Source: a bacterium (GTDB lineage Bacteria > Patescibacteriota > Minisyncoccia > Phycocordibacterales > CAIZIN01). From it: a stretch of 64,000 bases of DNA. Positions 2 to 44,365 of this stretch are shown here, piece after piece (position 1 is the first letter of the stretch; each line of letters opens with the position of its first letter). A model generated the notes under the pieces. It saw only the letters and a list, made by a program, of their open reading frames with translations. It was not told the origin of the DNA and did no database searches. The position numbers and the translations under genes were made by a program. The DNA lies in assembly GCA_037131675.1 (NCBI GenBank), contig JBAXQO010000001.1, forward strand, positions 25,795 through 89,794, given 5' to 3'.

Positions 2-973
2 CTTGTAAATAACGAGTCAGAGATTCTTATTGCTTCAAATAACAATAAAAATAATCCTGATGTGTGTTTTCTTGTTCATGTGGATGTAGTGGCAGGTAGA
101 CCAGATCAATTTTCAATTAAAGTTAAAGACAATGTTGCTTATGGGCGAGGAGTGAGCGACATGAAATTTTCTATCCCTATTGGTTATTCCCTTTTGAATG
201 AAATGATTGAACAAAAAAGTAAATTGACCTTCTCATTAATAGTAACTTCTGATGAAGAGACAGGTGGTTTTAATGGTGCTCAATTTTTGGCAAAAAAATA
301 TGGTTTGAAACCAAAAATATTAATAGTACCTGATGGTGGTGATGATCTTATCTTTGTAAATAAATCAAAAGGAGTCTGCCAACTTCAAATCACTTCTTGT
401 GGTCGACCAGCTCACTCGTCTAGAATTTGGGAAGGGAGAAATGCAGTCGAACCAATCATCAGGTTATGTAATGAGCTGCTTAAGAGGTATGGTCAAAATA
501 ATAAAAAAGAGACATGGAATACTACCTTCAACATAAGTAAAATCAATGGGGGTATATCAACTAATCAAGTATGTGACAAAGCAGAGGTATCATTTGATTT
601 TCGTTTTCCAGAAGATACTTCATACAAAGAGATTAAAAATGAAGTATCTATAATTGCGAAGGAAATAAGTAGTGACTTATCTGTTAAATTACTTTCCTAC
701 GGTAACCCAACTTTTGTGGAAGAGAAAAATGAGACAGTTATCTTGTTTGTCAAGGCATTTGTTGAAAATTTTAAAAAACAGATAAAAATTGCAGGTACCC
801 ATGGAGCTTCGGATGCTCGTCACTTTACCTCATTAAATATCCCTATTTTAATGATTAAGCCTATAGGCGGAGATATACACGGTGAAAATGAACATATAAA
901 TATTGATTCATGCATCACCTACTACTCAGCTCTTAAAAGTTTTATGAGAAAACTTGAGTATCCTGAGAATTAA
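2..973 (+). CDS. M20-family metallopeptidase (ArgE/DapE-like); 5' end cut by window start
   Basis: Frame is open to position 2. HVDVV metal-binding motif and GRPAHSS motif are typical of peptidase M20 (acetylornithine deacetylase/succinyl-DAP desuccinylase family). Confidence 0.7.
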   Translation, partial: LVNNESEILIASNNNKNNPDVCFLVHVDVVAGRPDQFSIKVKDNVAYGRGVSDMKFSIPIGYSLLNEMIEQKSKLTFSLIVTSDEETGGFNGAQFLAKKYGLKPKILIVPDGGDDLIFVNKSKGVCQLQITSCGRPAHSSRIWEGRNAVEPIIRLCNELLKRYGQNNKKETWNTTFNISKINGGISTNQVCDKAEVSFDFRFPEDTSYKEIKNEVSIIAKEISSDLSVKLLSYGNPTFVEEKNETVILFVKAFVENFKKQIKIAGTHGASDARHFTSLNIPILMIKPIGGDIHGENEHINIDSCITYYSALKSFMRKLEYPEN

Positions 974-2637
974 AATAGCGACTTGAGAAATTCAGTCTTT
1001 CTTTGACCTCCCAACATTGAATAAACATAACCTAAAATTTCACCAATATCAGCATTTTCAATATCAATATAGTTTCTATCTGTTGCAATTAAACCACTTG
1101 CCCCATCCTTCTTTGACTCTGTTAGTATTTTTTTAATGATGGACTGCCAGTACTTAATATTCTTTTCACGCAAATCGATCCATCCACTATTAGCCCAAAG
1201 ATCAATATTTTTAGTACTAATAATATTTTCCTCCTTTATGTTTGGAACATAGAAGTACTCACCCGCTGTTACATGATCATCATTGAAAATAATAGGTAGT
1301 CCCAGAGATACAATTTGTGAACGTACTTGCTGATTGTCTTCTAAGAATTTATTTATTTTTTTAACTAAAGCACCACTTGAGGATTTAACAAGTACTGACA
1401 GAGATTTCTGACTACAAGCTAACATTAAATATATTTCGAAAAGATGTTTTGAAACTGTTGGACCGAGGTTGTTTGTTGCAATGCTAGGAATTGAATTTTT
1501 TACTTCTAGACCAGTAAGTCTATCAAGAATGATACGTCTTTGAATTCCACCTAAATGTGATGGTCCAAGTGCTACTAAGTCCATTGCAGTAAGTAGATCA
1601 TGTCTAGTTGATCCTATTGCCATTTCAATACAGGCTTGAGCAACTTCCTCCCTAGTCACACACTCCATTTGCCCCAACGCTGTTATAGCAGTCATTTCAC
1701 CTAAGCTATAAGCACAGTTTTCACCTGAATCAACGTAGGGCATTTCCATAAAAGTAGAAATTTGTTCACATTTGCCCGGAACAAAAACTTCACCAGATAC
1801 CAATTTAGTTTTTGTCTTAGAATCAACTAGAGGTATACCCCTACCATGAGAACGAAATTGACCAAAACCGACTCCTTGCCAACCAACAAGAGCAGCTGGA
1901 ACAACTACTTTTACGTTAATTCCTGGAGTGTGGGATAGGCCCCAAAATAATTGATGAATAACTCCAGCAGCAGCAACCTTACCCAGAATCCCAGAAGACA
2001 TACCGGGTTCATTTACATCACCGTGTGTATAAAAAAGATTATCACCCATACCACCCAAGCCAGTTGTAGATACTTTTACATAACACTTAACCTTAAAATC
2101 AAGCAAACTCTTTTTAAGAGCTTGAGTGAAGCGAATTAAACTAGGAACAATATTAGAAACAAGAAGGTTTTCTGTTGAATCACACCAGTCTTGTTTCTTA
2201 TCTCCCTTGTTTAAAATTCTTCTTGGAAGAGAATATGGATCATCCTGATAACCAACAACTGTTGCTGTATTAATACCATCAAAGATATAGTCTGGTTTCC
2301 ATTTTTTAACTAAGTAATACAAAGATGATTCTTTGATTAAGTCATCACTCAAATACGAGTAATAATATCTTATTAGTTCTTTTCTATTCTCGGACACATG
2401 AAGCTCATCACGATTAAGATTCATTAATTTCTTAGTAACTAGAGCATTACCCCATGAAATTTGAATATCAATGTTGCAATCTCCTAAATTTGCTTGAATA
2501 TTTTTAAATACCACTACAGCTTCTTTTTTAGTTAAAGTATGTAGGATAATTCTTTTAGGATTATTTTTAATTGATTTAAGAGCACAAGCTTCTCCAATTT
2601 GGCCAGCCCCTAGAATAAGTATAGTTTTATTTCTCAT
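970..2637 (-). CDS. Two-domain protein: N-terminal NAD(P)-binding Rossmann domain + C-terminal FabD-like acyltransferase-like domain; function unknown
   Basis: N-terminus ILGAGQIGEA is a GxGxxG dinucleotide fold. C-terminal half has GWQGVGFGQ followed ~66 residues later by AYSLGE, spacing and shape like the FabD GQGSQ...GHSLGE acyltransferase signature. Confidence 0.4.
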   Translation of the reverse strand: MRNKTILILGAGQIGEACALKSIKNNPKRIILHTLTKKEAVVVFKNIQANLGDCNIDIQISWGNALVTKKLMNLNRDELHVSENRKELIRYYYSYLSDDLIKESSLYYLVKKWKPDYIFDGINTATVVGYQDDPYSLPRRILNKGDKKQDWCDSTENLLVSNIVPSLIRFTQALKKSLLDFKVKCYVKVSTTGLGGMGDNLFYTHGDVNEPGMSSGILGKVAAAGVIHQLFWGLSHTPGINVKVVVPAALVGWQGVGFGQFRSHGRGIPLVDSKTKTKLVSGEVFVPGKCEQISTFMEMPYVDSGENCAYSLGEMTAITALGQMECVTREEVAQACIEMAIGSTRHDLLTAMDLVALGPSHLGGIQRRIILDRLTGLEVKNSIPSIATNNLGPTVSKHLFEIYLMLACSQKSLSVLVKSSSGALVKKINKFLEDNQQVRSQIVSLGLPIIFNDDHVTAGEYFYVPNIKEENIISTKNIDLWANSGWIDLREKNIKYWQSIIKKILTESKKDGASGLIATDRNYIDIENADIGEILGYVYSMLGGQRKTEFLKSLF

Positions 2638-3670
2638 AAAATGTTTTTTTTATGTTATCCACACTCTCATAGTCTGTGATTTTCATAGCATTTCTAACCT
2701 CCTTCATTGTAACAGATGCTAACTTTTGAGCCCTATTAGTACCCTCTAGTAAAGCCTCACGTACAGCTTCTGGATGAGCCTGGAAATAAGCTCTTCTCTC
2801 TCTAATCGGCGTCAAAAATGTATTTAAGACTTCAGATAAGATTTTTTTAAGTTCCCCATCACCAATTTTACCTTCCTTATATTTCTTTTTAAGGTCTTCC
2901 AATTCGGTGCTGTTTTTATGAAAAGCATCTAAGTAACTAAAAACAACATTGCCCTCGATATGTCCTGGATCTGTTGCTTTTAATCTTGTCGGGTCAGTAT
3001 ACATACTCTTTACCTTTCTATTTACCTCTTCTTCTGAATCAGATAAGTAAATACAATTATTCAAACTCTTACTTGCTTTGGCCTTACCATCAATACCAAT
3101 TAATCTAGGTATACGTCCAACCAGAGCCTGAGGTTCTTTAAAGACACTTCCGTAAACATTATTAAATTTACGGACAATTTCTCGTGTCAATTCAATATGT
3201 GGTAATTGGTCTTCTCCTACGGGCACAAGATCAGCCTGAGGTAGTAATATATCCGCAGCCTGAGAAACAGGATAATTATAAAATCCAAGAGAAACATCAC
3301 TTTTCTTTTGTTGAATAATTTCTGCCTTAAGCGTTGGATTTCGATCCACTAAAGAAATAGGAACAAACATACTCAATAACATAAATAGTTCGGCGTGTTC
3401 TGGAACATAACTCTGTATAACAAAAGAACATTTTTTTGGGTCTAATCCTACAGATAACCAGTCTAAGGTAACACTAATAACTGATTTTCTAATTCTATCT
3501 GTTTCACCTAGGTGATCACCTAAGGCTTGATAATCAGAAATTAGAAAAAAGCACTCATACTCATCTTGTAATTTTAGCCAATTTTCTAAAGCACCAACGT
3601 AGTGACCTAAATGAAGTGGTCCGGTTGGGCGTACCCCTGTTAAAATTCTTTTTTTAGGTTTATTCTCCAT
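2627..3670 (-). CDS. trpS: Tryptophanyl-tRNA synthetase, copy 1 (genome-typical low GC)
   Basis: Class I aaRS HIGH motif (PTGPLHLGH), QDEYECFF and VSQAADIL blocks typical of TrpRS. KMSKS present as KASKS. No cysteine cluster. Confidence 0.9.
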   Translation of the reverse strand: MENKPKKRILTGVRPTGPLHLGHYVGALENWLKLQDEYECFFLISDYQALGDHLGETDRIRKSVISVTLDWLSVGLDPKKCSFVIQSYVPEHAELFMLLSMFVPISLVDRNPTLKAEIIQQKKSDVSLGFYNYPVSQAADILLPQADLVPVGEDQLPHIELTREIVRKFNNVYGSVFKEPQALVGRIPRLIGIDGKAKASKSLNNCIYLSDSEEEVNRKVKSMYTDPTRLKATDPGHIEGNVVFSYLDAFHKNSTELEDLKKKYKEGKIGDGELKKILSEVLNTFLTPIRERRAYFQAHPEAVREALLEGTNRAQKLASVTMKEVRNAMKITDYESVDNIKKTFYEK

Positions 3671-3801: not shown

Positions 3802-4809
3802 ATGAAAAAACGGATTCTAACAGGAGATCGACCTACGGGAAGGCTCCACATTGGCCATTTGGTTGGAACGCTTCAAAATCGCGTTCGACTTCAGGACGAA
3901 TATGAGTGCTTCTTCGTTATTGCCGATCTACAGGTCCTCACGGACCACATTGATCTTCACAGCAACATCGAAGCAAACATTTTCGAGGTGATGTGTGACT
4001 ATTTGAGTGTTGGATTGAAACCTGAAAATTGTTTCTTTATCCAATCACAAGTACCAGAACTTTGTGAACTGACCATGTATTTTTCCTTCCTGGTTTCTCT
4101 TGCTAGTGTACAGAGAAACCCAACGGTGAAAAGCGAGGCAGAAATGTATGGCGTGTCACAAATGAGTTTGGGCTTTGTTAGCTACCCTGTTTCTCAGGCC
4201 GCTGACATTCTTGCCTTTAATGCAGATTTAGTTCCTGTTGGACAGGATCAACTTCCGCATATTGAGCAAGCTCGAGAAGTCGCAAGAACTTTTAACAGAA
4301 CCTTCGGTAAGAAGATTTTCAATCTTCCTGAGGCGCTGGTTGGAGAGATACCTGTCTTATCAGGCACCAAAGGAGATCAGAAAATGAGCAAGAGTTTGAA
4401 TAATCAGATTGACCTTGCTCACTCTGGAGAAGAAACTTCGCTCAGAATCGGGAAGATGGTGACAGATGTTCAGCGTGTTTTTCGTAAAGATGTTGGACAC
4501 CCTGACAGTTGCCAAGCTTTTAAATACTGGTCCATCTTTGCCCCCGAAGCAACTCAACAAGTTCGTTTTGAGTGTGAGGGTGCAATGCGTGGCTGCAAGG
4601 AATGCAAAGCACAACTGGCAGATAAAATGAACACCTATCTTGGCGAGATCCGTGAGAAAAGGAAATACTATGCTTCCAAACCAAACCTTGTCTGGGAGAT
4701 TCTAGCTAGTGGTACCAAGCGAGCTCGTCAGGTTGCAAAACAAACCTTGATGGAAGTGAGAGAATCTATGCATCTTTCGTTTCCGCTCCTCAAACTGCCT
4801 TCTGACTAA
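3802..4809 (+). CDS. trpS: Tryptophanyl-tRNA synthetase paralog, copy 2 (higher GC, C-x20-C-x6-C-x2-C motif)
   Basis: HIGH (PTGRLHIGH) and KMSKS intact; ~50% identical to copy 1 by eye. Contains DSC...FECEGAMRGCKECK Cys4 arrangement resembling the [4Fe-4S] TrpRS of Thermotoga. Visibly GC-richer than flanks. Confidence 0.85.
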   Translation: MKKRILTGDRPTGRLHIGHLVGTLQNRVRLQDEYECFFVIADLQVLTDHIDLHSNIEANIFEVMCDYLSVGLKPENCFFIQSQVPELCELTMYFSFLVSLASVQRNPTVKSEAEMYGVSQMSLGFVSYPVSQAADILAFNADLVPVGQDQLPHIEQAREVARTFNRTFGKKIFNLPEALVGEIPVLSGTKGDQKMSKSLNNQIDLAHSGEETSLRIGKMVTDVQRVFRKDVGHPDSCQAFKYWSIFAPEATQQVRFECEGAMRGCKECKAQLADKMNTYLGEIREKRKYYASKPNLVWEILASGTKRARQVAKQTLMEVRESMHLSFPLLKLPSD

Positions 4810-5003: not shown

Positions 5004-5960
5004 ATGACATGCATGCTAATAAATACCCTTAGTAAACAAAAGAAGCAGACTAAATTTGATTTAAGATTATTAAATTTTATAACAGAAACCATTGGACCCA
5101 AATTTGAAATTAGTAAGGTGTATGGTGGACTTGTACACGATGTATATAAAATTCATAATAAAAATACATATCATTATCTTAAACTAAGAGGAAGTTACTT
5201 TTCAATGATCCCAAACATAGTCATAAACCCCAAAGATATAAAATATGAAAAAAAGGCTTTAGAAATTTTCTCCAAATTATTACCGGATATTTTCCCTACA
5301 ATAATTGCCTTTAACGAGGAACTATCTGCGATTATTTTGAGCGATATCAACCCTTCTGGGTACACATTAGAACTTTTATTTAACCAACAAAAAGTCAATG
5401 TACTTATTATGGAAAAAATTGGAATAGCCTTAGGTAGAACTCATTTTTACTTGAGAACAATTACCGATTCAATCCGTCCAGATGACGACAAAAATTATTA
5501 TGAATCAAATTTTTGTGATAGATTTTTAAAGTTTAACTATCCAATCGCGAATATTTGCGCGAAAAAACTAGTTTCGGATCTCAAAAAAATTCCCAGACAA
5601 CTTATTTTATCAGACCTGTCTCCTAAGAATATAGGTATTAGTGAGGATAATAAAATTAGTTTTTTTGATTTAGAATGTGTACATAAAGGAAATACAATCT
5701 TTGATTTAGGGTTTTTGTTAGGACATATTACTTTACACTCAAAAAACAATTCAAATGTTCTTATTAAAAGTCTATTACAGGGCTATATGATGTCTATAAA
5801 TGATTCCATTGACTCTAAAATGTTAGAAAAAATTATGGGCATTACTATTTTATATAGATTATGTAATGAAATTATACCTTATCCATTACCTATTTCTGAT
5901 GCAGAAAAAAAGGCCCTAATTGAAAAAGCTTGTTGTTTATTAAATATAGATAAAAAATAG
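5004..5960 (+). CDS. APH/choline-kinase-like phosphotransferase fold protein
   Basis: LSDLSPKNIGI resembles the Brenner motif (hxDxxxxN) and FFDLE resembles the DFE/DLE metal-binding motif of the aminoglycoside phosphotransferase/ChoK family. Very AT-rich. Confidence 0.5.
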   Translation: MTCMLINTLSKQKKQTKFDLRLLNFITETIGPKFEISKVYGGLVHDVYKIHNKNTYHYLKLRGSYFSMIPNIVINPKDIKYEKKALEIFSKLLPDIFPTIIAFNEELSAIILSDINPSGYTLELLFNQQKVNVLIMEKIGIALGRTHFYLRTITDSIRPDDDKNYYESNFCDRFLKFNYPIANICAKKLVSDLKKIPRQLILSDLSPKNIGISEDNKISFFDLECVHKGNTIFDLGFLLGHITLHSKNNSNVLIKSLLQGYMMSINDSIDSKMLEKIMGITILYRLCNEIIPYPLPISDAEKKALIEKACCLLNIDKK

Positions 5961-6001: not shown

Positions 6002-6712
6002 TTAATTCTCCCCAATAAACAAAAAGCCATTGTGGGTAGAACCATCCTCAACACTGAGTGCTGTTTCGAACCATTGGTTTACAGTTTTAATACGAGAACA
6101 GGGAATCTTATCGTATAAACACTTCTCATACAACCCTGTTACAACAAATGAATTCAGGTCGATATTCCCAGATCGACCAAAGGTAAGTTTTGTACCCAAC
6201 TTCCTAAGATCCATTGGAACCTCTGGATTTTTTGGGTTAGGGTAGACTTTGGTGCGCAAACCTTCCAACAAACAAAACATGATTGGATTTTGAGTCGTGA
6301 ATGCAATCATGCGCAAGTTTGCTTTACTAGAAAGTGTATGAGCAAGTTTTCTGCCAACACCTCGACATTTATAATTCTGAGCAGTTGCAATTCCATGAAG
6401 ATAGAAAACTCCTTCTTCAGGAAAAACCTTCGATGAAGCGAAGCCTAAAATCTGACCATGGTCATGAAGAAAGGCTATTGAACCCGCATCAACTACATGA
6501 TTTCTAACACCGTCATCGGTATCATTATCGAGATCTGCTCCAAAACTTTCAGCTGTGATTTTTTTGAGATCTACAATCAAACGATCTACAACCTCAGCAT
6601 TCACAGAATCAGTCAATATCAATCTTGGATTGTCCAACACGGAAATGGTTGCCCCTTCCCAATCAACAGACCAAACATTCTGTTTGGAAAGAAAATCGCT
6701 AAATGTTTGCAT
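6002..6712 (-). CDS. GNAT family N-acetyltransferase
   Basis: Motif A-like HGIATAQNYKCRGVGRKLAH (Q/R-x-x-G-x-G/A) of acetyl-CoA-binding GNAT fold. Confidence 0.6.
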   Translation of the reverse strand: MQTFSDFLSKQNVWSVDWEGATISVLDNPRLILTDSVNAEVVDRLIVDLKKITAESFGADLDNDTDDGVRNHVVDAGSIAFLHDHGQILGFASSKVFPEEGVFYLHGIATAQNYKCRGVGRKLAHTLSSKANLRMIAFTTQNPIMFCLLEGLRTKVYPNPKNPEVPMDLRKLGTKLTFGRSGNIDLNSFVVTGLYEKCLYDKIPCSRIKTVNQWFETALSVEDGSTHNGFLFIGEN

Positions 6713-6837: not shown

Positions 6838-6910
6838 GGGCGTGTCGGTTAATTGGTTAAACCCATAGTCTCCAAAACTATTACTGTGGGTTCAAGTCCC
6901 ACCACGCTCG
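6838..6910 (+). tRNA. tRNA-Trp (anticodon CCA)
   Basis: 73-nt cloverleaf folded by hand. Acceptor GGGCGTG/CACGCTC (one G-U). D-stem GGTT/AACC. Anticodon stem ATAGT/ACTAT with loop CTCCAAA (U33, CCA, A37). T-arm GTGGG-TTCAAGT-CCCAC. Discriminator G. No encoded CCA. Confidence 0.85.
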
Positions 6911-6938
6911 CGTCCCTTCTAGGTACAGATAAAAGAAA

Positions 6939-6974
6939 AACCACCCGAACTTTCATTCAGGTGGTTATTTTATT
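6939..6974. terminator. Hairpin + T-run between tRNA-Trp and the convergent chorismate mutase gene
   Basis: AACCACC...GGTGGTT stem with long loop followed by ATTTTATT. Could terminate either strand. Confidence 0.45.
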
Positions 6975-6981
6975 GATTGCT

Positions 6982-8103
6982 TCAGACTTTTTTTCCAGCA
7001 ACAATGATGTATGCCCCTAACCCAGTTTCCGTTTGGACAATAATGTCATCTAGCTCCTGGATAGTTCCAACTGGCTTTATACTTTCAATAATTTCAGTTG
7101 GAAGGATTGAAGTAAGTACAGGGTAAGTATATGATTCCAAAACACAAAGCCGATCTGGAATCATTCCTTTTATCTCACTCAGGGTATATGGCTGAGCAAA
7201 AATTGGGATTAATTCATTACCCAGCCTAACCTCCAAGCAATTTCTTTCCTGATCAATACCTGCAACTAATCCGAGTGGCCAAGGGAAAAAAGTTCTTTGG
7301 GCCCATGCCTCTTTGTTATAGAAAGAGATAAGAAAACGCCCGTGCGGTTTCAACACCCTCCTAATTTCAGAGAAGACAAAACTCAAATTTTGAACATCAC
7401 TCCCAGTGCCATTATTCATGATCAGAAATGAAACGGAACAATCTTCAACTGGGAATCGACTTTCAATGTCATGAACTTCCAGGTTGATATTTTTCAAACC
7501 CTCTTTTGCAACCCCTTTTAGGCCGAACTCAACCATCGCAGGACTTATATCGAACCCTTGGAGCTTTCTGAACCTTTTCGAGAGTCGTCTGATTTCCTTA
7601 CCTGTAGCACAACCTAAATCGAGAGCATATTTTCCATCACAAGATTGAGAGATTATTCTATCAATTACACCATGCTCAAATTTTGTAAGAGCAGCTGTTG
7701 CAGGATGCTCTCTATCATACTCCAAATCATATTTGGGGGCCCACGATTCAGTAAGCCTAATAAGATTAGCCTGAAGCTCTTCGTAAGTAGGGTTAAACTT
7801 CTCAGAAGAATTCCCAAGTCTTAAACTATCGACAATTACCATTTGGTTCTTGCACGACTCCCCAATGACTGGGTACAAAAGTGAGCGAGCAAATTCGGGA
7901 TTTACCCCCTCTTCTTCCGCCCACTTTGAAACTTGATCTAACCGTTCTTTTTCTTTTTGAGAACGATAAAGAGGAGAACCATCCTCAATCTTTATCATTG
8001 CAACTTCCTTTGCCAAACGAACACGCCTGGCCAACAAGTGGACAAAATGCCTATCGACAGATGCTATCTTTTGGCCTAAAATATCAAGTCTATCTTTTTT
8101 CAT
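6982..8103 (-). CDS. Chorismate mutase (AroQ-type) fused to class I SAM-dependent methyltransferase
   Basis: N-terminal LDILGQKIASVDRHFVHLLARRVRLAKEVAMIK...RSQKEKERL matches the AroQ chorismate mutase helix pattern. C-terminal DLGCATGKE...GFDISPAMVEFG is a class I MTase motif I. Start set at the ATG at 8101-8103, preceded by GGAGG 9 nt upstream. The longer tracked ORF (to 8280) would overlap the next gene. Confidence 0.65.
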   Translation of the reverse strand: MKKDRLDILGQKIASVDRHFVHLLARRVRLAKEVAMIKIEDGSPLYRSQKEKERLDQVSKWAEEEGVNPEFARSLLYPVIGESCKNQMVIVDSLRLGNSSEKFNPTYEELQANLIRLTESWAPKYDLEYDREHPATAALTKFEHGVIDRIISQSCDGKYALDLGCATGKEIRRLSKRFRKLQGFDISPAMVEFGLKGVAKEGLKNINLEVHDIESRFPVEDCSVSFLIMNNGTGSDVQNLSFVFSEIRRVLKPHGRFLISFYNKEAWAQRTFFPWPLGLVAGIDQERNCLEVRLGNELIPIFAQPYTLSEIKGMIPDRLCVLESYTYPVLTSILPTEIIESIKPVGTIQELDDIIVQTETGLGAYIIVAGKKV

Positions 8104-8215
8104 TTTAATGTACCTCCAGTTGACAATACTATTGGTTTGTATTGTTTTGTCAAATAAGAAAAAACCTTGTTCAACAGTTCTGTGTGTACAAGGTTTATAG
8201 ATATTAATATATATC

Positions 8216-8470
8216 CTAACTTTTTTTATTAATATTGAAGTGCGGCTCTGGAATCTCAGACTGACATTTTCCACAGACAATCTTTTCTTCCACTATTTTA
8301 GACGAAATGTATTGGTGGCATTCTTGACACCAAACCAATATCTTTTTGCATGAGGGACAGTGACGTTTCGAAACATCTTTGTCTGGTAAAATAATTCCGG
8401 AAGTACCGAAACCACAACTTAGACAAAAGAAACGAACGCCTATAGGATGTGTTTTTGGTATTGTATTCAT
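8216..8470 (-). CDS. Small Cys-rich zinc-ribbon protein (four CxxC pairs)
   Basis: CLSCG, CPSCK, CQEC, CGKCQ motifs in 84 aa. Confidence 0.5.
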   Translation of the reverse strand: MNTIPKTHPIGVRFFCLSCGFGTSGIILPDKDVSKRHCPSCKKILVWCQECHQYISSKIVEEKIVCGKCQSEIPEPHFNINKKS

Positions 8471-8613: not shown

Positions 8614-8928
8614 ATGAACTGGGACACGAAAGAAAACAAACGTTTAATTGAAGCAATCTTAGCTCTGGAAACAAGAGCTGAGGCTAAGTTGTTTTTGCGT
8701 GACCTCATGACCGAAGGGGAAATTGAAGAATTTGCAAAACGATTTAAAACAGCTGAAATGCTCGTAGATAAAATCCCCTACTCTATTATCGAAAAAGAGA
8801 CTGGCTTTAGCTCCACAACAGTCGCAAGAGTCTCTAAATGGCTCCGAGGCAAGCAAGGAGGCTACAAAGCGATGATTAACAAATTACATCATCATAACTC
8901 TAACCAAATAAGGAAAGAGTTGTCTTGA
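8614..8928 (+). CDS. TrpR-related YerC/YecD-family DNA-binding protein
   Basis: LIEAILALETRAEAKLFLRDLMTEGEIEEFAKRFKTAEML...TGFSSTTVARVSKWL closely parallels the Bacillus YerC (Trp repressor-like, PF01371) sequence pattern. Confidence 0.7.
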   Translation: MNWDTKENKRLIEAILALETRAEAKLFLRDLMTEGEIEEFAKRFKTAEMLVDKIPYSIIEKETGFSSTTVARVSKWLRGKQGGYKAMINKLHHHNSNQIRKELS

Positions 8929-9043: not shown

Positions 9044-9646
9044 ATGAAAATTGAAGTAATGAATCCATTCCAGCAGCACAACATTGTTGGAAAAGTAGTT
9101 TCTGCATACCAAAAAGTTTTTGGTGGCGAACCGTGGAAAGAGGGTTACAAATGTCCTATCTGTGGAACTGAAGTGCCACTTAATTTTGAGAATGAAGTTT
9201 GTCCAGCTTGTGCGGGTGATGGAAAATCTATCTTACTCATAGAAAGTTGGCCAGCAAGTAAGGTTACTTCAGATTTCTATAAAGAAATGAGCAAACCTGA
9301 AGCTTTGTGTATGGTAGCAGAGAAAGAAAATGAGGTTGTTGGTTTTGCGTGGGGGTATAAAATATGTATTACCTCTGAAACCGATACTTATCTTGACGCA
9401 CCTAATGTTCACAAACTAGTTGCGGGAGAAGTATTCTATCTCGATGAGGTTGCTGTTTTGCCAGAATATCAAGGAATGGGTATTGGCAAAAGTATCGTCA
9501 AAGAAATATTTTCCGCCCAGAAACATAAAACTATCTTACTTAGAACTTTAGCAGATTCGCCAATGTTTTACCTCACGAAAAAAATGGGAGGGAAAGTTAT
9601 CCTCAATATTTCAAGGGGTCGAGTTATTATGTTACTAAATCTTTAA
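9044..9646 (+). CDS. GNAT acetyltransferase with N-terminal CxxC-x17-CxxC zinc ribbon
   Basis: CPICG...CPACAG ribbon. LDEVAVLPEYQGMGIGKSIV is GNAT motif A. Confidence 0.6.
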   Translation: MKIEVMNPFQQHNIVGKVVSAYQKVFGGEPWKEGYKCPICGTEVPLNFENEVCPACAGDGKSILLIESWPASKVTSDFYKEMSKPEALCMVAEKENEVVGFAWGYKICITSETDTYLDAPNVHKLVAGEVFYLDEVAVLPEYQGMGIGKSIVKEIFSAQKHKTILLRTLADSPMFYLTKKMGGKVILNISRGRVIMLLNL

Positions 9647-9653: not shown

Positions 9654-9682
9654 GCCTGGTGTTTTTAACACTAGGCTTTTTT
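9654..9682. terminator. Bidirectional terminator between convergent genes
   Basis: 10-bp stem GCCTGGTGTT/AACACTAGGC (one G-U), 3-nt loop, T6 run. Confidence 0.6.
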
Positions 9683-10489
9683 CTTTTCTCCAAGTAAAAA
9701 GGCTTCTTCCCCACCAGTTTCAACATTTCTAGCAAAGAGAATTATACTGTCTTTCTGTGCTCTGACTTCTTCTTTCCCATCTGTTCCAATAACTTGTCCT
9801 AAGTTTATTTCTTCAAAATCACTGAATTCTTTTGTGAGTTTAAAATTATTTTTTGTAATATAAATTGAATACATTTGAATATAATTTTGTGTATATATTT
9901 GTCTTTCTCCAGATACGTGCTCCCTAGCGCGGAGAAATGTATAGATACTTTCTTCGGCTATTTCCGTTGATTTTTGATCTCCAAGATACCCACATTCAAC
10001 ACAAATTCCAATTTTACCAATGCTGTTCATGTAGTAATCTGTCCCACCAGGTTCCACCTGATCAAAGCCAGATACAATAAGCGAAAACGGTAAATATTTC
10101 ACAATTTCTTTTGAATTTGGTTCACAAATGATAAATCTCTGACTTGCAGGAGTATAGCTTGCATGAATATCAAGAAGAACGTCGGCTTGATCAAGATACT
10201 TTTTTAGAAATTGAGCGCGAGAATATTCGTAACTTTCCTTTTCTTTTTCAGACAATAACTCATCTGACTTAAACATTCGGTTTAGATTTGCTTCAGTATA
10301 ACGAACATTTTGGTCTATGGATTGTGGGTTTCCATAAGCAAAAAACGCTTTACCTTTTTGTATTTCAAGTTTAGACAGTATTTTATTTAAGGCTTCAACC
10401 CCACACTTTTCATTACCATGGACACCCACCAAAATCATACTTGTTGGCCCAGGTTCTCTACCCACTAATTCAATAACATTTTCGTACAT
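9671..10489 (-). CDS. AstE/AspA family zinc deacylase (succinylglutamate desuccinylase/aspartoacylase-like)
   Basis: GVHGNE zinc-binding motif near N-terminus and overall length typical of AstE_AspA / M14-like fold. Confidence 0.55.
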   Translation of the reverse strand: MYENVIELVGREPGPTSMILVGVHGNEKCGVEALNKILSKLEIQKGKAFFAYGNPQSIDQNVRYTEANLNRMFKSDELLSEKEKESYEYSRAQFLKKYLDQADVLLDIHASYTPASQRFIICEPNSKEIVKYLPFSLIVSGFDQVEPGGTDYYMNSIGKIGICVECGYLGDQKSTEIAEESIYTFLRAREHVSGERQIYTQNYIQMYSIYITKNNFKLTKEFSDFEEINLGQVIGTDGKEEVRAQKDSIILFARNVETGGEEAFLLGEKKKA

Positions 10490-11010: not shown

Positions 11011-12036
11011 TTAATGTTTACTTATCACAATACTTTTCTTTTTAGTATCCACTCTTACCTCTCCGCCAATAGGGAAAGTGATTATGGGACTCGTATGGCC
11101 GAAATCTACATTTGCAATCACAGGAATGTTTTTTAGTTCTGCTTTGCTTTTTATAATCTTAATCAATTTTTCTTTTGTTACATTACTCGTTTTTTGGAAT
11201 CTACCAATTACAATTCCTTTTACACCTTCAAAAGACGGTTGGTGAATGAGTGATTGTAAATCTCTATCAAAATGAACAGCTTTTGATTCATCATCATCCT
11301 CCAAAAACAAAACTGAATCTTTCAGATTTGGCATATATTCAGTTCCTTGGATAAGGTTAAACGTACCCAAGTTGGCACCGAGCAATGTACCCGAAGCTTT
11401 CCCTTTATTTATTACAAGCCAACCGTCATTTTTGATCACCTCTCTTTTATCCTGGTCTTTATACCACACATCATCTGTCCATGTTTCAGAAGGTTCGATA
11501 GCAAATTCAGCATCAGACATGAGGCACTTTTTGAAATATTCCAGCGTGTAATCAAAGTATAATTTCTGTCCAAAAGTAGACCATGCTGGTCCAGAATATG
11601 TAACCAAGCCAGTCTTTGCAAAAATTGCATTTTGTAGAGCTGTCGTATCAGAATATCCAATAAATACTTTGGGGTTCTTTTTTATAATATCCCAATCAAT
11701 ATATCTCAAAAGTTGATTACAGTTGAATCCACCAATGACAGCAAATACAGCTTTGACTTTTGGGTCTTGAAAAGCTTTGTGTAAATCACTTACTCTTGAT
11801 TTTATTGACGAAGAATTAAACTCGTCTATTTCTTCGACGTTTTTACCGAAAGATATTTTAAATCCAAGATCTGAAAGTCTTTTATTTGCAATATCTCTTA
11901 TGTCTTGTGAGATGATAGCAGCCGAGCTAGATGGGGCTATGATTCGTATTTCATCCCCTGTTTGTAATTTTTTTGGAAATATTTTTTTCATTACTTTAAT
12001 ATTACCGAAAACACTATTTTTGTCTATTTGTGTCAA
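11011..12036 (-). CDS. Peptidase S66 LD-carboxypeptidase (LdcA/MccF family)
   Basis: IRIIAPSS...GYSDTTALQNAIFAKTGLVTYSGP matches the conserved S66 nucleophile region (GYSDxTAL). Confidence 0.7.
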   Translation of the reverse strand: MTQIDKNSVFGNIKVMKKIFPKKLQTGDEIRIIAPSSSAAIISQDIRDIANKRLSDLGFKISFGKNVEEIDEFNSSSIKSRVSDLHKAFQDPKVKAVFAVIGGFNCNQLLRYIDWDIIKKNPKVFIGYSDTTALQNAIFAKTGLVTYSGPAWSTFGQKLYFDYTLEYFKKCLMSDAEFAIEPSETWTDDVWYKDQDKREVIKNDGWLVINKGKASGTLLGANLGTFNLIQGTEYMPNLKDSVLFLEDDDESKAVHFDRDLQSLIHQPSFEGVKGIVIGRFQKTSNVTKEKLIKIIKSKAELKNIPVIANVDFGHTSPIITFPIGGEVRVDTKKKSIVISKH

Positions 12037-32820: not shown

Positions 32821-35800
32821 TTACCCTTTGACCACTATGTTGATAAGCCTAGTTGGAACAAATACCACCTTAATAATCTCCTTCCCCTCAATCCACTTGA
32901 ATATGTCTAAATTATCTTTCAAACTCTCAAAAGCCTCTTTTTCTTCAATTGTCCTAGAAACCTTCATCTCTCCACGTAATTTACCGTTAACCTGAACCAC
33001 GATGGTCACAATATCGCTTTCAAGTTTCTTGGGGTCATATTTTGGCCATACAACTTCATGAATCGATTTTTTGTTCCCTAACGATCTCCACAACTCTTCC
33101 GACATATGGGGTGCAAATGGAGCTAGAATTTGGAGAAACTTTTCAAAATGACTTTTGTATACGGCTGGAGAATTATCCATCTCGTTAACTAAAATCATCA
33201 TGGCAGAAATGGCGGTGTTGAAATTAAATGACTCAATATCCTCTCCAACTTTTTTTATTGTCTTATTGAGAGTCTGCTCGTATGAATAAACGACTTTTTT
33301 ATCTTCAGAAATTTTTTCCTGTATTCTCCAAACTTTTTCAATAAACCTACGAGAACCAATTATTCCATCTGTAGACCAAGGCAACTGTGAATCAAATGGA
33401 CCAATGAACATTTCAAAAACTCTAAGTGTGTCTGCTCCATATGTTGCAACCACCTCATCTGGATTTACCACATTCCCCCATCTTTTTGACATCTTTCTGT
33501 TATCAGAACCGAGAATCATACCTTGGTTGCGAAGCGCCTTGAAAGGTTCTTTCATTGGTACGAGTTTTAAATCAAATAGGAACTTATGCCAGAAACGAGA
33601 ATACAAGAGATGTCCTGTTGCATGCTCCGCACCGCCCACATACATATCTACCTGTTTCCAATATTTTAAAGTTTTTTCACTTGCGAATTTTGAATTGTTA
33701 AGAGGGTCCATATAACGCAAGAAATACCAAGATGAACCTGCCCACCCAGGCATTGTGTTTGTTTCATATCCATTCTTCACCCAATCCTTCACACCAGCAA
33801 GTGGAGATTCTCCAGTACCTATTGGTTCATATGATTTAACATTTGGAAGTGTGAGTGGTAGTTCTTTTTCTTTAAGAGATTTTATTGTTCCGTCTTTTTC
33901 GTGAACCAATGGAATGGGCTCACCCCAATATCGCTGACGAGCAAAAATAGCATCGCGCATTTTATATTTTGTCACTAATTTTCCGCCCACAGCTTTTGTG
34001 ATTTCTTCTCTGGCTTTTTCAGAAGATAAAGCATTAAATTTTTCTGAATTTGAAAGCACACCATCGTCCGTATACGCACTCACACCTTTAATAACTCTGT
34101 CGAGCCAAACGTCCATCTCGGCATGACACATAAATGTAGTGTTTAGGCTTCTTTGATCTATCCACAAAATTTCATTTTCTTCTTGCTCTTCTTTAGAGAT
34201 TTCTTTTCTCTCATCTCCATCCAGTTCAAAATACACAAGACTTGTGAACGAAACCCTGTTTTGGTCTTTATGTTTTGCAAAATACTCCGCACGCACTTGC
34301 CCACCTAAAATTTTTGCATTTGTTAAGTTTGTGTAACCCGTTTCTTCCAAAACCTCTCTTTTTGCTGCATCAATCAAATCTTCTCCTTCATTTACTCCGC
34401 CCATTGGAAACGTATTCCAATGATGTTTTTTTGAATGCAAACATAAATATTTTCCAGTCTTAACATTCTTAACCATCGCCTGAACATTCTGTCTCTCAAC
34501 TTTTTGTTTACCTGCAACTGGTGGATTTCTTTTATCAATTCGCTCAGGAATAATAACTTCTTTTACTGGCAATTTATGTTTCTTGGCAAATTCCCAGTCT
34601 CTCTCATCATGTGCAGGTACAGCCATCACAGCACCTGTTCCATATGATGCAAGCACATAATCTGCAATCCACACAGGAACTTCTTCATTATTTACCGGAT
34701 TAATTGCATATATACTTTTTAGTTCAACTCCCGTTTTCCCCTTGCTTCCAACACGATCTTCTTCTGTTTTATTTTTTACTTCCTCAATATATTTCAAAAC
34801 CTCATTTTTATTTGAGACAAAAGTTAAAAGTTTTTGCACCAATTCATGTTCTGGAGCAAGCACAACGTAGGTCACACCAAAAAGCGTGTCAGCCCGTGTT
34901 GTGAATACTTTTATTTTTTCTCCTATTCCTTTAATTAAAAATTCAATTTCTGAACCTTCGCTTTTTCCAATCCAGTTTTTTTGAATTTCCTTGATATGTG
35001 AAGACCAATCTAAATCTGTTAAATCTTCAATGAGTCTATCTGCATATGCAGTGATACGTAAAAACCATTGCCGCAAAGATTTCTTTACTACAGAATACCC
35101 GCCACGTTCAGACACAGGTTTACCGTCTGGTCCGTCAACAATTTCATCGTTTGCAAGTACAGTGCCGAGCTCGGGACACCAGTTCACCTCACTGAAACCT
35201 TCGTAAGCCAAACGGTATTTCATCAAAAACTTATCGTGCGCAAGCTTATCCATATTCTTCCATTCTTTCGCAGTTATTATTGGAGTATCTAGATCGGCGG
35301 CAGCACTTACTTTTTCATTACCGTTTTTTTCTAAAATTTTAACAAGAGTTTCTATTGGCTCCGCTTTGTTTTTTGCAGTGTTATACCATGAATTGTAAAG
35401 CTTAAGAAAAATCCACTGAGTCCATTTATAATATTTTGGATCAGTTGTATTTATTTTTCTAGACCAATCATATGAAAATCCAATTTTATGGAGTTGCCCT
35501 TCAAAAGTCTTAACATTTTCCTCAACAGCTTTTCGAGGATGGATTTTGTGTTGAATGGCATATTGTTCGGCAGGCAAACCAAAAGCATCATAACCCATCG
35601 GATGAAGAACATTAAATCCTTTTACGCGCATGAGACGTGCGTACACATCACTTGCAATGTAGCCCCGTGGGTGCCCAACATGAAGACCTTGTCCAGAAGG
35701 ATACGGGAACATGTCTAATACATATTTCTTTGGTTTTTTGGTTGAAGACGCAGTTTTGTATATACCTTTTTTCTCCCACTCTTTCTGCCATTTGGATTCA

Positions 35801-44275: not shown

Positions 44276-44278
44276 TTG

Positions 44279-44365
44279 CGGAGAGAGGGAGATTCGAACT
44301 CCCGGGACCAATTAAGGTCCGGCGGTTTAGTAAACCGCTGGTTTAAACCACTCACCCATCTCTCC
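44279..44365 (-). tRNA. tRNA-Ser-like type II tRNA; anticodon loop reads UUACUAA (ACU, decoding AGU)
   Basis: Hand fold. Acceptor GGAGAGA/TCTCTCC + discriminator G as in E. coli tRNA-Ser. 3-bp D-stem. Long variable arm GGACC-TTAATT-GGTCC. T-arm GGGAG-TTCGAAT-CTCCC. A at position 34 is unusual, so anticodon call is tentative. Confidence 0.7.

What the first reader, a model, noticed from the sequence alone, without database searches (positions are those of the whole stretch)
6982..8103. Chorismate mutase fused to a SAM-dependent methyltransferase
The N-terminal ~100 aa carry the AroQ helical signature. The C-terminal ~230 aa are a class I MTase (DLGCATG motif I). This is an uncommon architecture. 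In a genome that otherwise shows no aromatic amino-acid biosynthesis in this window, a lone CM-MTase next to TrpRS/TrpR-like genes suggests a specialised chorismate-derived or regulatory function rather than Phe/Tyr synthesis.
Basis: partly seen in the sequence, partly recalled or inferred. Interest (0 to 1): 0.55.

Follow-up and report, generated by a model that had tools for sequence, protein, structure and literature searches.

The report
Chorismate-mutase–methyltransferase fusion tied to TrpRS
The gene is a real, conserved but uncharacterised fusion of a remodelled chorismate-mutase-type domain to a small-molecule SAM methyltransferase, and in many tiny-genome (Patescibacteria) bacteria it sits directly beside the tryptophanyl-tRNA synthetase gene, which links it to tryptophan/aromatic metabolism, not ordinary Phe/Tyr synthesis.

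Summary
Window 6982-8103 (minus strand) is one intact 373-aa ORF with its own RBS, promoter-like site and terminator. It holds Pfam CM_2 (aa 11-87, E=1.5e-16) and a class I SAM methyltransferase (aa 157-266, E~1e-16). It is not a frameshift artefact: 229 clusters (50% identity) match the family profile at E<1e-30, and most of the best 150 are full-length fusions. The family is unnamed and I found no paper on it.

New findings:
- A TrpRS gene lies in the held DNA of 24 of 29 loci and is directly adjacent in 19. The pairing recurs in a second, deeply divergent subfamily, next to Trp-repressor and Trp-metabolism genes.
- The AroQ pocket keeps R28, K39, E52, S84 and Q88 (E. coli numbering). The trans-subunit Arg11' is Gly and Asp48 is Arg. 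Across 150 members, Arg/Lys at the Arg11' position and Arg/Lys at position 54 are complementary (147/150 have at least one).
- Paralogues of the same MTase carry a YbaK-type aminoacyl-tRNA-editing domain instead of CM.
- The MTase domain is acidic (median pI 5.3), not CmoA- or UbiE-like.

Best reading: a chorismate/prephenate-binding, probably still mutase-competent, domain coupled to a small-molecule MTase in a Trp-linked module. The methyl acceptor is unknown.

The parts
6982..8103 (-). CDS of the 373-aa CM-MTase fusion protein (stop codon 6982-6984)
   Evidence: ORF and translation. Pfam CM_2 plus Methyltransf_31/25/11. An identical protein, P0001, is annotated 'MAG: chorismate mutase [bacterium]'.
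7843..8073 (-). AroQ (CM_2) domain, aa 11-87. Pocket residues are R27, K38, R47, E51, R54, S83 and Q87. Gly10 takes the place of EcCM Arg11'.
   Evidence: Pfam. HMMER alignments to 1ecm, 2d8d and 3rmi fix the register. Column statistics. Helices 2-41, 48-64 and 69-95 in the AF2 model.
7639..7791 (-). Two linker/lid helices, aa 105-155, with the conserved N113, L114, T118, Y125, Y129 and E143 ('WAPxYDxxY')
   Evidence: Alignment invariants. Helices 107-128 and 134-154.
7306..7635 (-). Class I SAM-MTase Rossmann core, aa 157-266 (motif I LDLGCATG, D185, D212, MNxGTxSD, SFYN)
   Evidence: Pfam. Alignment. Foldseek matches to class I MTases. PDB profile search.
6985..7305 (-). Family-specific C-terminal beta/alpha subdomain, aa 267-373 (PWP, A303, P328, LP335, G363xY365); no Pfam model
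   Evidence: No Pfam coverage. Invariant columns. Strands 281-327 and 365-372 in the model.
8113..8117 (-). Shine-Dalgarno GGAGG, 9 nt upstream of the ATG
   Evidence: Read directly from the sequence.
8126..8153 (-). Sigma-70-like promoter match (TTGACA-16-TAGTAT) upstream of the gene
   Evidence: Consensus scan, 10 of 12 matches. This is a pattern match only.
6939..6966 (-). Intrinsic-terminator-like hairpin plus T-run just after the stop codon
   Evidence: 12-bp stem, T-rich tail.
8216..8470 (-). 84-aa double Zn-ribbon protein directly upstream. The same small protein precedes TrpRS in five of six other loci or is fused to its N-terminus.
6838..6911 (+). tRNA-Trp (CCA), convergent with the CM-MTase gene
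   Evidence: ARAGORN. Rfam tRNA, 59.3 bits.
3802..4809 (+). TrpRS paralogue 2, with a C-x20-C-x6-C-x2-C motif
   Evidence: Pfam tRNA-synt_1b. NCBIfam trpS 240.5 bits, above the 176.75 cut-off. Alignment.
2627..3670 (-). TrpRS paralogue 1 (47% identical to paralogue 2)
8614..8928 (+). YerC/YecD-type TrpR-related regulator
   Evidence: Pfam Trp_repressor, 2.9e-18. NCBIfam yecD_yerC 59.9 bits, above the 42.2 cut-off.
9671..10489 (-). AstE/aspartoacylase-family deacylase, a recurrent neighbour (15 of 29 loci)
6002..6712 (-). GNAT-like protein of a 'TQNP' family that recurs near the fusion (5 loci)

Best explanation
The gene encodes a two-domain small-molecule enzyme that belongs to a tryptophan-linked gene module. 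SHOWN: (a) It is one polypeptide with an AroQ three-helix domain and a complete class I SAM-MTase. (b) The family is conserved. (c) Its gene is adjacent to the TrpRS gene in most loci and lies near Trp-repressor genes, tRNA-Trp and, in some genomes, trpE/G/D/F/A or pabAB-like genes. (d) The AroQ pocket keeps R28, K39, E52, S84 and Q88 (EcCM numbering) but has lost the Arg11' that the partner subunit normally supplies. (e) Across the family, Arg/Lys at the Arg11' position and Arg/Lys at position 54 on helix 2 of the same chain are complementary. (f) The MTase domain is acidic, and its family-specific invariant residues are Tyr, Trp, Phe, Glu, Asp and Asn. INFERRED: The AroQ domain still binds a chorismate/prephenate-type dicarboxylate. 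It most likely still catalyses the mutase reaction, with Arg54 (and Arg47) supplied in cis taking over the carboxylate contact of Arg11'. I recall a comparable swap in the secreted AroQ-gamma mutase of M. tuberculosis, where another arginine replaces Arg11'. The fused MTase then methylates an aromatic, amine- or hydroxyl-bearing (or metal-chelated alpha-keto-acid) metabolite of the same pathway. The protein would act at the chorismate branch point as a Trp-co-regulated side route, not as part of bulk Phe/Tyr synthesis. The identity of the methyl acceptor is not determined.
For: Domains and motifs. Fold: (pLDDT 91.6; pTM 0.87 implies a fixed domain arrangement). Register against EcCM, Thermus and Bartonella mutases. 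Conservation in 150 members: R27 146/150, K38 144, E51 146, Q87 142; position 10 is G 91, A 23, R 19; position 47 is R 106; position 54 is R 132. Complementarity of positions 10 and 47: Fisher p=2e-6. Positions 10 and 54: 147/150 have Arg/Lys at one or the other, and a rough tree built from the MTase domain needs at least 13 and at least 7 changes at the two positions, so this is not a single event. A subgroup with a fully canonical CM site (R11', R28, K39, R51, E52) keeps all the MTase-specific residues, so the CM-plus-MTase pairing predates the remodelling. Other chorismate users lie in the same neighbourhoods: trpE/G/D/F/A in L026 and a pabB-like gene plus a glutamine amidotransferase gene in L001. 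TrpRS synteny. The canonical subgroup has the gene downstream of TrpRS with 8-bp and 2-bp gaps, a Trp_repressor gene alongside, and in L039 genes with Pfam matches to Trp dioxygenase (weak), the cyclase family of kynurenine formamidase, Aminotran_5, TrpA and a PALP enzyme (TrpB-type). MTase domain median pI 5.3. Nearest sequence and structure matches are small-molecule MTases.
Against: No NCBIfam chorismate-mutase model reaches its cut-off (best 44.9 bits against 273; 40.3 against 77). Arg11' and Asp48, both important in EcCM, are replaced in this clade. I could not inspect the model coordinates, so I could not check whether Arg47 and Arg54 reach the pocket or whether the pocket faces the SAM site. 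Patescibacteria generally lack amino-acid biosynthesis, and no shikimate genes were seen in the ORFs annotated in the 64-kb window, so the source of chorismate in this organism is unknown. An acidic MTase pocket is a poor fit for dianionic prephenate unless a metal bridges it. The TrpRS and YbaK links are not explained by a plain chorismate route.
Confidence: 0.4

Rival explanations
1. Sensor model. The AroQ-like domain no longer catalyses anything. It is a ligand-binding module for chorismate/prephenate or an aromatic amino acid such as Trp, and it gates or presents substrate to the MTase. The MTase's real target would be tryptophan, a Trp-derived amine, or the aminoacyl moiety made by the neighbouring TrpRS.
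For: The trans Arg11' and Asp48 are lost. TrpRS adjacency in 19 of 29 loci, and Trp_repressor neighbours. Paralogues of the same MTase, with the same invariant residues, carry a YbaK/aminoacyl-tRNA-editing domain instead of CM; one sits in the operon MTase-YbaK, TrpRS, CM-MTase. Stand-alone YbaK-like genes occur in L013 and L017. The family-specific invariant residues of the MTase are aromatic and acidic, which would suit a cationic aromatic substrate. Precedents from my own knowledge: the AroQ domain fused to Bacillus DAHP synthase acts as a feedback sensor, and the Trp/Tyr allosteric site of yeast chorismate mutase lies in an AroQ-derived fold.
Against: Catalytic-type residues K39, E52 and Q88 stay nearly invariant, and an Arg is always retained at position 10 or 54. 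A subgroup has a fully canonical CM site and still pairs with TrpRS. MTase-YbaK fusions in two other contigs are not followed by TrpRS.
Confidence: 0.25
2. CmoA-like model. The CM domain makes prephenate, which the MTase-fold domain uses with SAM to form carboxy-SAM, as CmoA does, for a carboxymethylation reaction.
For: CmoA has a class I MTase fold and uses prephenate and SAM (papers listed, e.g. PMC7496830 and PMC6599085). A lone CM in an organism without a Phe/Tyr pathway would make sense as a prephenate supplier. E. coli CmoM, a tRNA MTase of the cmo5U pathway, is among the structural matches (TM-score 0.74 on the target).
Against: No CmoA model appears among the best 25 NCBIfam hits, and no CmoA structure among the best 60 PDB profile hits. 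The only near-invariant basic residue in the MTase part is the generic R249 of the 'RVLKPGG' motif. No CmoB-like partner was found in the neighbourhoods; the recurrent 320-aa MTase-like neighbour matches no Pfam or NCBIfam model.
Confidence: 0.07
3. PapB/PapM-like model. The CM-type domain is a 4-amino-4-deoxychorismate mutase and the MTase N-methylates the resulting p-aminophenylalanine-type product.
For: In L001 a glutamine amidotransferase gene plus a chorismate-binding enzyme that scores best as PabB (304 bits against 281 for TrpE) lie 2.5 kb from the fusion. N-methyltransferases are prominent among the nearest PDB sequences. PapB being CM_2-type and PapM being an N-MTase is from my own knowledge.
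Against: A pabAB-like pair was seen in only 1 of 29 loci, and no PapC-type dehydrogenase anywhere. Asp48 replaced by Arg would repel a 4-ammonium group. This model does not explain the TrpRS link.
Confidence: 0.07
4. Macromolecular methyltransferase model. The enzyme methylates tRNA-Trp or TrpRS itself, with the AroQ domain serving as a dimerisation or regulatory module.
For: Operon with TrpRS, and tRNA-Trp next door in the window. YbaK-domain paralogues. Structural matches include CmoM and a Trm112-dependent MTase.
Against: The MTase domain is acidic (median pI 5.3) across 150 members. No RNA-binding domain is present. The AroQ pocket residues are conserved as for a small ligand. The nearest sequence matches are small-molecule MTases.
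Confidence: 0.07
5. Ordinary chorismate mutase for Phe/Tyr synthesis that happens to be fused to an unrelated housekeeping MTase; or an assembly or frameshift artefact.
For: NCBI names the identical protein 'chorismate mutase'.
Against: No prephenate dehydratase, prephenate dehydrogenase or aromatic aminotransferase appears in any neighbourhood I annotated. The domain interface is predicted with confidence and the fusion is conserved over 33-64% identity. The one discordant homologue, P0023, is itself a probable chimera.
Confidence: 0.04

Closest known systems
AroQ-class chorismate mutases (E. coli P-protein mutase domain, PDB 1ecm; Pfam CM_2)
   Same: Three-helix topology and helix lengths. 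R28, K39, E52, S84 and Q88 are conserved. The family profile hits 1ecm at E=1e-11.
   Different: The trans-subunit Arg11' is Gly/Ala in about 76% of members, Asp48 is Arg, and Leu55 is Arg. No NCBIfam CM model is reached at its cut-off. The domain is fused to an MTase instead of prephenate dehydratase, prephenate dehydrogenase or DAHP synthase.
AroQ domains used as regulators or with relocated arginines (Bacillus/Listeria DAHP synthase N-terminal CM domain; secreted AroQ-gamma *MtCM; yeast Aro7 allosteric site). From my own knowledge, not tested here.
   Same: They are precedents for an AroQ pocket that senses prephenate/chorismate, for replacement of Arg11' by an Arg from elsewhere in the same chain, and for an AroQ-derived site that binds Trp.
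   Different: None of them is fused to a methyltransferase or linked to TrpRS.
CmoA (carboxy-SAM synthase) with chorismate mutase as the upstream supplier
   Same: Class I MTase fold whose chemistry depends on prephenate. It would explain a lone CM (papers).
   Different: No specific sequence similarity to CmoA. No CmoB partner was seen.
PapB plus PapM of pristinamycin/chloramphenicol-type p-aminophenylalanine pathways (from my own knowledge)
   Same: A CM_2-type mutase together with a SAM N-methyltransferase in one pathway. A PabB-like gene lies nearby in one locus.
   Different: There they are separate genes in antibiotic clusters with PapA and PapC. Those partners are absent here and the context is TrpRS.
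Structural-genomics MTases TM1389 (2avn), PH0226 (1ve3) and YcgJ (1xxl), and phosphoethanolamine N-MTs
   Same: Best structure and sequence matches to the MTase part (2avn TM-score 0.73 on the target; 1ve3 E=1.4e-15).
   Different: Their functions are unknown or unrelated. They lack the AroQ domain, and identity is only 16-20%.
Non-canonical TrpRS gene clusters of CPR bacteria (Mukai et al. 2017, PMC5370408)
   Same: TrpRS genes in CPR genomes flanked by tRNA-Trp and trp-repressor genes and by an unknown co-evolving ORF. The authors propose a role in Trp metabolism and encoding.
   Different: That paper concerns archaeal-type TrpRS-A and an 'ORF1' in Microgenomates. The word 'methyltransferase' does not occur in its text.

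Membership tests
AroQ chorismate mutase (Pfam CM_2 / PF01817) | Match to the family model above the curated threshold | tested here: met
   60.8 bits against a gathering score of 27; aa 11-87 cover profile positions 3-79 of 80.
AroQ chorismate mutase (Pfam CM_2 / PF01817) | All-helical three-helix AroQ topology | tested here: met
   The AF2 model has helices 2-41, 48-64 and 69-95, with block-mean pLDDT 79-96. The dimeric state was not modelled.
AroQ chorismate mutase (Pfam CM_2 / PF01817) | Cis active-site residues R28, K39, E52, S84 and Q88 (EcCM numbering) | tested here: met
   They correspond to R27, K38, E51, S83 and Q87. They are 84-97% conserved in 150 members.
AroQ chorismate mutase (Pfam CM_2 / PF01817) | Arg11' from the partner subunit, and Asp48 | tested here: not met
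   Gly10 and Arg47 occupy these positions in the window protein. In the family, position 10 is G 61%, A 15%, R 13%, and position 47 is R 71%. Arg54 may compensate.
AroQ chorismate mutase (Pfam CM_2 / PF01817) | Reaches an NCBIfam chorismate-mutase equivalog cut-off | tested here: not met
   Best scores are 44.9 against 273, 40.7 against 120, 40.4 against 95.9, 40.3 against 77 and 38.5 against 66.95.
AroQ chorismate mutase (Pfam CM_2 / PF01817) | Catalyses chorismate to prephenate | not testable with these tools
   Needs an enzyme assay or complementation.
Class I SAM-dependent methyltransferase | Matches to the family models above threshold | tested here: met
   Methyltransf_31 58.6, _25 54.7, _11 49.5, _12 31.9 and _23 28.3 bits, all above their cut-offs.
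Class I SAM-dependent methyltransferase | SAM-binding motifs: the Gly-rich motif I, an acidic residue at the end of beta-2, and an acidic motif III | tested here: met
   LDLGCATG (D162, G164, G168), D185 and D212 are invariant or at least 90% conserved.
Class I SAM-dependent methyltransferase | Rossmann-like alpha/beta fold | tested here: met
   Alternating strands and helices over aa 159-263. More than 1400 PDB MTase matches at E<=0.001.
Class I SAM-dependent methyltransferase | Methyl transfer to a defined acceptor | not testable with these tools
   The acceptor is unknown. Only indirect hints exist (acidic pI, aromatic and acidic invariant residues).
CmoA carboxy-SAM synthase | Specific sequence similarity to the CmoA family | tested here: not met
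   No CmoA model among the best 25 NCBIfam hits. No CmoA structure among the best 60 PDB profile hits.
CmoA carboxy-SAM synthase | Partner carboxymethyltransferase (CmoB-type) in the genome or neighbourhood | tested here: inconclusive
   None in the annotated parts of the held loci. Whole genomes were not searched.
UbiE/MenG quinone methyltransferases (the name JGI attaches to some members) | Reaches the family cut-off | tested here: not met
   TIGR01934 36.7 bits against 158.35; NF001244 33 against 216. The similarity is confined to the SAM-binding core.
PapB/PapM p-aminophenylalanine pathway | Co-occurring aminodeoxychorismate synthase (PapA) and dehydrogenase (PapC) | tested here: not met
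   Absent from the annotated window ORFs. A PabB-like gene was seen in only one of 29 loci (L001), and no PapC-type gene in any annotated locus.

The most novel reading that the evidence does not exclude
This MTase family works on the product of the neighbouring TrpRS. It would methylate tryptophan while it is activated or tRNA-bound, or a Trp analogue released from tRNA-Trp. The AroQ-type and YbaK-type domains would be alternative accessory modules that bind or release the aminoacyl substrate or report aromatic-precursor status. That would make it a previously unknown TrpRS-coupled amino-acid modification or quality-control pathway in Patescibacteria and a few other lineages.
Probability: 0.12. 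Interest if true: 0.85.

Novelty: new variant of a known kind. Interest (0 to 1): 0.6.

Why it matters
Patescibacteria have tiny genomes and are thought to make almost none of their own amino acids. A gene that is kept, and kept glued to the TrpRS gene, across lineages only 33-54% identical to the window protein is therefore likely to do something important for tryptophan handling. The family also shows what looks like a natural active-site rewiring in the much-studied AroQ mutase fold, with a trans arginine replaced by a cis one. In addition, the same MTase core is paired either with a chorismate-mutase domain or with an aminoacyl-tRNA-editing domain. Finding the ligand and the methyl acceptor would either add a new branch at the chorismate node or reveal a new link between aromatic metabolism and tRNA-Trp charging. 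At present databases name these proteins only 'chorismate mutase' or 'methyltransferase domain-containing protein'.

Tried and rejected
1. Frameshift or chimera: rejected. The ORF is continuous and the architecture is conserved. The one odd homologue, P0023 (560 aa), is identical up to motif I and then unrelated, so it is probably a chimera itself.
2. I first read the 158-163-aa ORFs that clustered with the fusion (L013, L017, L031) as 'CM-only' split versions. That was wrong. They are YbaK/tRNA_edit-like proteins, linked to the cluster only through L031's caspase-MTase-YbaK protein.
3. CmoA-likeness is not supported.
4. UbiE/MenG membership: only the SAM-binding core matches.
6. I looked for a shared operator-like motif upstream of the CM-MTase, Zn-ribbon, TrpR-like and TrpRS genes. 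Only AT-rich chance 9-mers turned up.
7. Rfam found no leader or riboswitch near the genes, only tRNAs.
8. Literature searches for the fusion, or for a CM/MTase/TrpRS link, found nothing relevant. PMC5370408 describes other TrpRS clusters in CPR bacteria.
9. Two MTase-YbaK fusions in other contigs were checked for TrpRS adjacency. The contigs are short and the downstream genes are not TrpRS.
10. The alignment of all 29 sequences was too diverse for the locus scan, so I used a 12-sequence alignment instead.
11. A contig look-up for the window's AlaRS found no record.
Full report
1. THE OBSERVATION

The gene lies on the minus strand, 8103 to 6982, and encodes 373 aa. The mechanical ORF list extends it to a TTG at 8280. 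The ATG at 8103 is the real start: a GGAGG lies 9 nt upstream (8113-8117), and the N-termini of homologues agree. A sigma-70-like match (8153-8126) precedes the gene, and a hairpin plus T-run (6966-6939) follows the stop codon.

Pfam finds CM_2 at aa 11-87 (E=1.5e-16, 60.8 bits against a cut-off of 27). It finds Methyltransf_31/25/11/12/23 at aa 157-266, all above threshold. Residues 267-373 have no Pfam model.

AlphaFold2, run on a 45-sequence family alignment, gives pLDDT 91.6 and pTM 0.87. The model has three AroQ helices (2-41, 48-64, 69-95), two 'lid' helices (107-128, 134-154), a Rossmann core (159-263) and a beta-rich C-terminal subdomain.

2. THE FAMILY

The first homology search returned about 48 full-length CM-MTase proteins at 34-64% identity. 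Where a source names them, they come from Patescibacteria/Paceibacteria MAGs (Paceibacterota, Taylor-, Yonath- and Wildermuthbacteria). The identical protein is annotated 'MAG: chorismate mutase [bacterium]'.

A profile search of 1.84 billion cluster representatives found 229 at E<1e-30. Most of the best 150 are full-length fusions. At least eight are proteins of 433-461 aa in which the MTase is N-terminal and about 170-190 aa follow it. About ten more are MTase-only or fragments.

A more distant subgroup also has the full architecture. It includes a 61-member cluster on 5-6.4-Mb genomes, and in the one locus fetched from it the GC content is about 70%. One close homologue of that cluster's representative is named Immundisolibacterales, and a related partial protein Gammaproteobacteria. 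The architecture is therefore uncommon but well established. I found no publication on it.

3. THE AroQ POCKET

HMMER alignments to E. coli (1ecm), Thermus (2d8d) and Bartonella (3rmi) mutases give one consistent register: window residue n corresponds to EcCM residue n+1. The correspondences are:
- R27 = R28
- K38 = K39
- E51 = E52
- S83 = S84
- Q87 = Q88
- G10 = Arg11', the arginine that the other subunit contributes in AroQ dimers
- R47 = Asp48

In 150 full-length members the conservation is as follows:
- R27, K38, E51 and Q87 are 95-97% conserved.
- Position 10 is G 61%, A 15%, R 13%.
- Position 47 is R 71%, N 13%.
- Position 54 (EcCM L55) is R 88%.

Arg/Lys at position 10 and Arg/Lys at position 47 are anticorrelated (Fisher p=2e-6, not corrected for phylogeny). 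The states listed on a tree of the MTase domain show that 147 of 150 members carry Arg/Lys at position 10 or 54. That rough tree needs at least 13 and at least 7 state changes at the two positions, so the pattern is not one inherited event.

The distant subgroup has a textbook site: R11', R28, K39, R51 and E52, with Glu at the Q88 position. It nevertheless keeps every MTase-specific invariant residue.

My reading is that the ancestral fusion had a normal mutase. In the window's clade the carboxylate-binding arginine moved from the partner's helix 1 to helix 2 of the same chain. That argues for a pocket that still binds a chorismate/prephenate-like dicarboxylate. It does not prove catalysis, and no NCBIfam chorismate-mutase model reaches its cut-off.

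4. THE MTase

All SAM-binding motifs are intact: LDLGCATG, D185 and D212. Family-specific invariant residues outside those motifs are Y125, Y129, E143, D/E236, S260, Y262, N263, F272, P274, W275, A303, P328, P335, G363 and Y365.

The domain is acidic, with median pI 5.3 over 150 members. The AroQ domain is neutral to basic, with median pI 7.9. This favours a small, possibly cationic or metal-bridged substrate over RNA.

The nearest solved structures and sequences are generic small-molecule MTases: TM1389, PH0226, YcgJ, phosphoethanolamine N-MTs, OvsM, MitM and RebM. The tRNA enzyme CmoM is also among them. CmoA is not among the best hits, and UbiE/MenG cut-offs are far from met. The methyl acceptor cannot be named.

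5. GENOMIC CONTEXT

This is the main new result. I compared 29 loci that carry the fusion: the window, 3 loci from contig look-ups, 24 of the 26 loci returned by a scan of species-representative genomes, and L033. L005 and L024 have the same gene layout and may represent one organism.

I called ORFs and clustered them, then searched with the window's neighbouring genes. The counts are:
- A TrpRS gene lies in the held DNA of 24 of 29 loci.
- TrpRS is directly adjacent (gap up to 300 bp) in 19. It is usually upstream and co-oriented with gaps of 0-30 bp.
- An AstE/aspartoacylase-type deacylase occurs in 15 loci.
- A small double Zn-ribbon protein occurs in 7. It precedes TrpRS in most of them, and in L014 it is fused to the N-terminus of TrpRS. 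In the window it sits directly upstream of the fusion gene.
- A TrpD-like plus BtpA gene pair occurs in 8.
- A truncated YbdK/GCS2-like ligase occurs in 7.
- An MTase-like 320-aa protein with no database match occurs in 5.
- A GNAT-like 'TQNP' family occurs in 5.
- trpE/G genes occur in L026, and a pabB-like gene plus a glutamine amidotransferase gene in L001. Sequence reading also suggests trpD, trpF and trpA in L026.

In most loci the adjacent TrpRS has the canonical Trp-pocket motif (LMAADIL, GEDQ) and a four-Cys motif of the kind reported for Fe-S-containing TrpRS. The window has two TrpRS paralogues 2-4 kb away, plus tRNA-Trp and a YerC/YecD TrpR-related regulator.

The pairing recurs in the canonical-site subgroup. 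L038 and L039 have the fusion gene downstream of TrpRS with 8-bp and 2-bp gaps, and a Trp_repressor gene alongside. L039 also has genes with Pfam matches to Trp dioxygenase (weak), the cyclase family that includes kynurenine formamidase, Aminotran_5 (the kynureninase family), TrpA and a PALP enzyme (TrpB-type). Two large-genome loci of that subgroup (L036, L037) lack the TrpRS link.

For a single-copy 1-kb gene in a roughly 1-Mb genome, chance adjacency is of the order of 0.2%. The loci are related, but the fusion proteins in the genome-scan loci are only 33-54% identical to the window protein, and the surrounding genes differ.

6. THE YbaK CONNECTION

The paralogues of 433-461 aa (P0050, P0176 and others) share the MTase-specific motifs (APxYDxxY, SFYNK, PW). 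P0050, P0176 and P0187 were confirmed to carry a C-terminal PF04073 aminoacyl-tRNA-editing (YbaK) domain.

In L033 the gene order is MTase-YbaK, TrpRS, CM-MTase. Stand-alone YbaK-like genes lie next to TrpRS or the MTase-like neighbour in L013 and L017. L031 encodes an 892-aa protein with caspase, MTase and YbaK domains. Two other MTase-YbaK contigs are short, and their downstream genes are not TrpRS.

This is a second, independent hint that the MTase core deals with an amino acid or aminoacyl substrate.

7. INTERPRETATION

Shown:
- The fusion is real and conserved.
- The SAM site is intact.
- The AroQ pocket is conserved but rewired.
- Synteny with TrpRS and other Trp genes is strong.
- The MTase domain is acidic.

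Inferred, as the best explanation (confidence about 0.4): the AroQ domain binds chorismate or prephenate and probably still converts one to the other. The MTase methylates an aromatic metabolite of that route. The unit would be a Trp-co-regulated side branch at the chorismate node, not bulk Phe/Tyr synthesis.

The main rival (about 0.25) is that the AroQ domain is a sensor or substrate-presenting module, and that the MTase acts on Trp or on the aminoacyl product of TrpRS. Minor rivals are a CmoA-like carboxy-SAM synthase, a PapB/PapM-like pair, a tRNA or TrpRS methylase, and an ordinary mutase or artefact. The evidence for and against each is given in the Rival explanations section.

I could not examine the model coordinates, so the geometry of R47 and R54 and the spatial relation of the two active sites remain untested. 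I also could not census whole genomes for the shikimate pathway.

8. NOVELTY AND VERDICT

Both domains belong to well-known superfamilies. The combination is already visible in databases as a bare domain annotation. The following appear undescribed:
- the conserved TrpRS operon;
- the trans-to-cis arginine relocation;
- the CM/YbaK domain alternation on one MTase core.

I rate it a new variant of a known kind, with interest 0.6.

Noticed in passing
window 2627-3670 (-) and 3802-4809 (+): Two divergently transcribed TrpRS paralogues, 47% identical, in what looks like a small Patescibacteria genome. The second has a C-x20-C-x6-C-x2-C motif like the Fe-S-cluster TrpRS type. Most CM-MTase-linked TrpRS genes in other loci carry a similar four-Cys motif and KMGKS instead of KMSKS.
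   Followed up: partly
window 32821-35838 (-): The LeuRS (1005 aa) has a NUDIX hydrolase domain at aa 462-565, just after the editing domain. This is an unusual aaRS architecture.
   Followed up: no
window 44278-44365 (-): A tRNA-Ser with a long variable arm has the anticodon loop UUACUAA, giving anticodon ACU (A34) where GCU would be expected. Rfam scores it 54.8 bits as a tRNA.
   Followed up: partly
window 58302-58358 (+): A weak, partial tRNA-like match (30.8 bits, model positions 9-63) that ARAGORN did not report.
   Followed up: no
window 8216-8470 (-); L007, L008, L014, L020, L027, L028: An 84-aa protein with two CxxC pairs (Zn-ribbon) is conserved. It precedes TrpRS in L007, L008, L020 and L027, lies apart from it on the far side of the fusion gene in L028, and is fused to the N-terminus of TrpRS in L014. 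In the window it directly precedes the CM-MTase gene. It may be a TrpRS or CM-MTase accessory subunit.
   Followed up: partly
L005, L009, L012, L014, L024, L029, L030 (and BtpA alone in L017): A TrpD-like phosphoribosyltransferase (NCBIfam trpD 132.9 bits, below the 199 cut-off) is always paired with a BtpA-family TIM-barrel gene near the CM-MTase/TrpRS pair. It could be a non-canonical anthranilate/PRPP-type two-step module.
   Followed up: no
L031 2262-4940; L041 2655-3245: An 892-aa protein combines caspase (Peptidase_C14), this MTase family and YbaK/tRNA_edit domains. An unknown protein of about 200-230 aa with a 'YQRIQG' motif flanks the MTase-YbaK genes in both L031 and L041, which suggests a separate, possibly conflict-related, module.
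   Followed up: partly
window 62-973, 5004-5960, 6002-6712, 9044-9646, 9671-10489, 11011-12036: The TrpRS/CM-MTase region is surrounded by acyl-amino-acid-type enzymes: an M20 peptidase, an APH/methylthioribose-kinase-like kinase, two GNATs (one with a Zn-ribbon), an AstE/aspartoacylase-like deacylase and an LD-carboxypeptidase. GNAT plus metallopeptidase-like genes also flank the pair in L038.
   Followed up: partly
window 54661-55968 (+): Fusion of SAICAR synthetase and AIR carboxylase domains (purC-purE) in one 435-aa protein.
   Followed up: no
P0023 (homologue, 560 aa): It is 91% identical to the window protein up to motif I (…DLGCATGKEIRRLS) and then continues as an unrelated protein (precomputed Pfam PF27054). 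This is probably an assembly chimera or a recent rearrangement in a close relative.
   Followed up: partly
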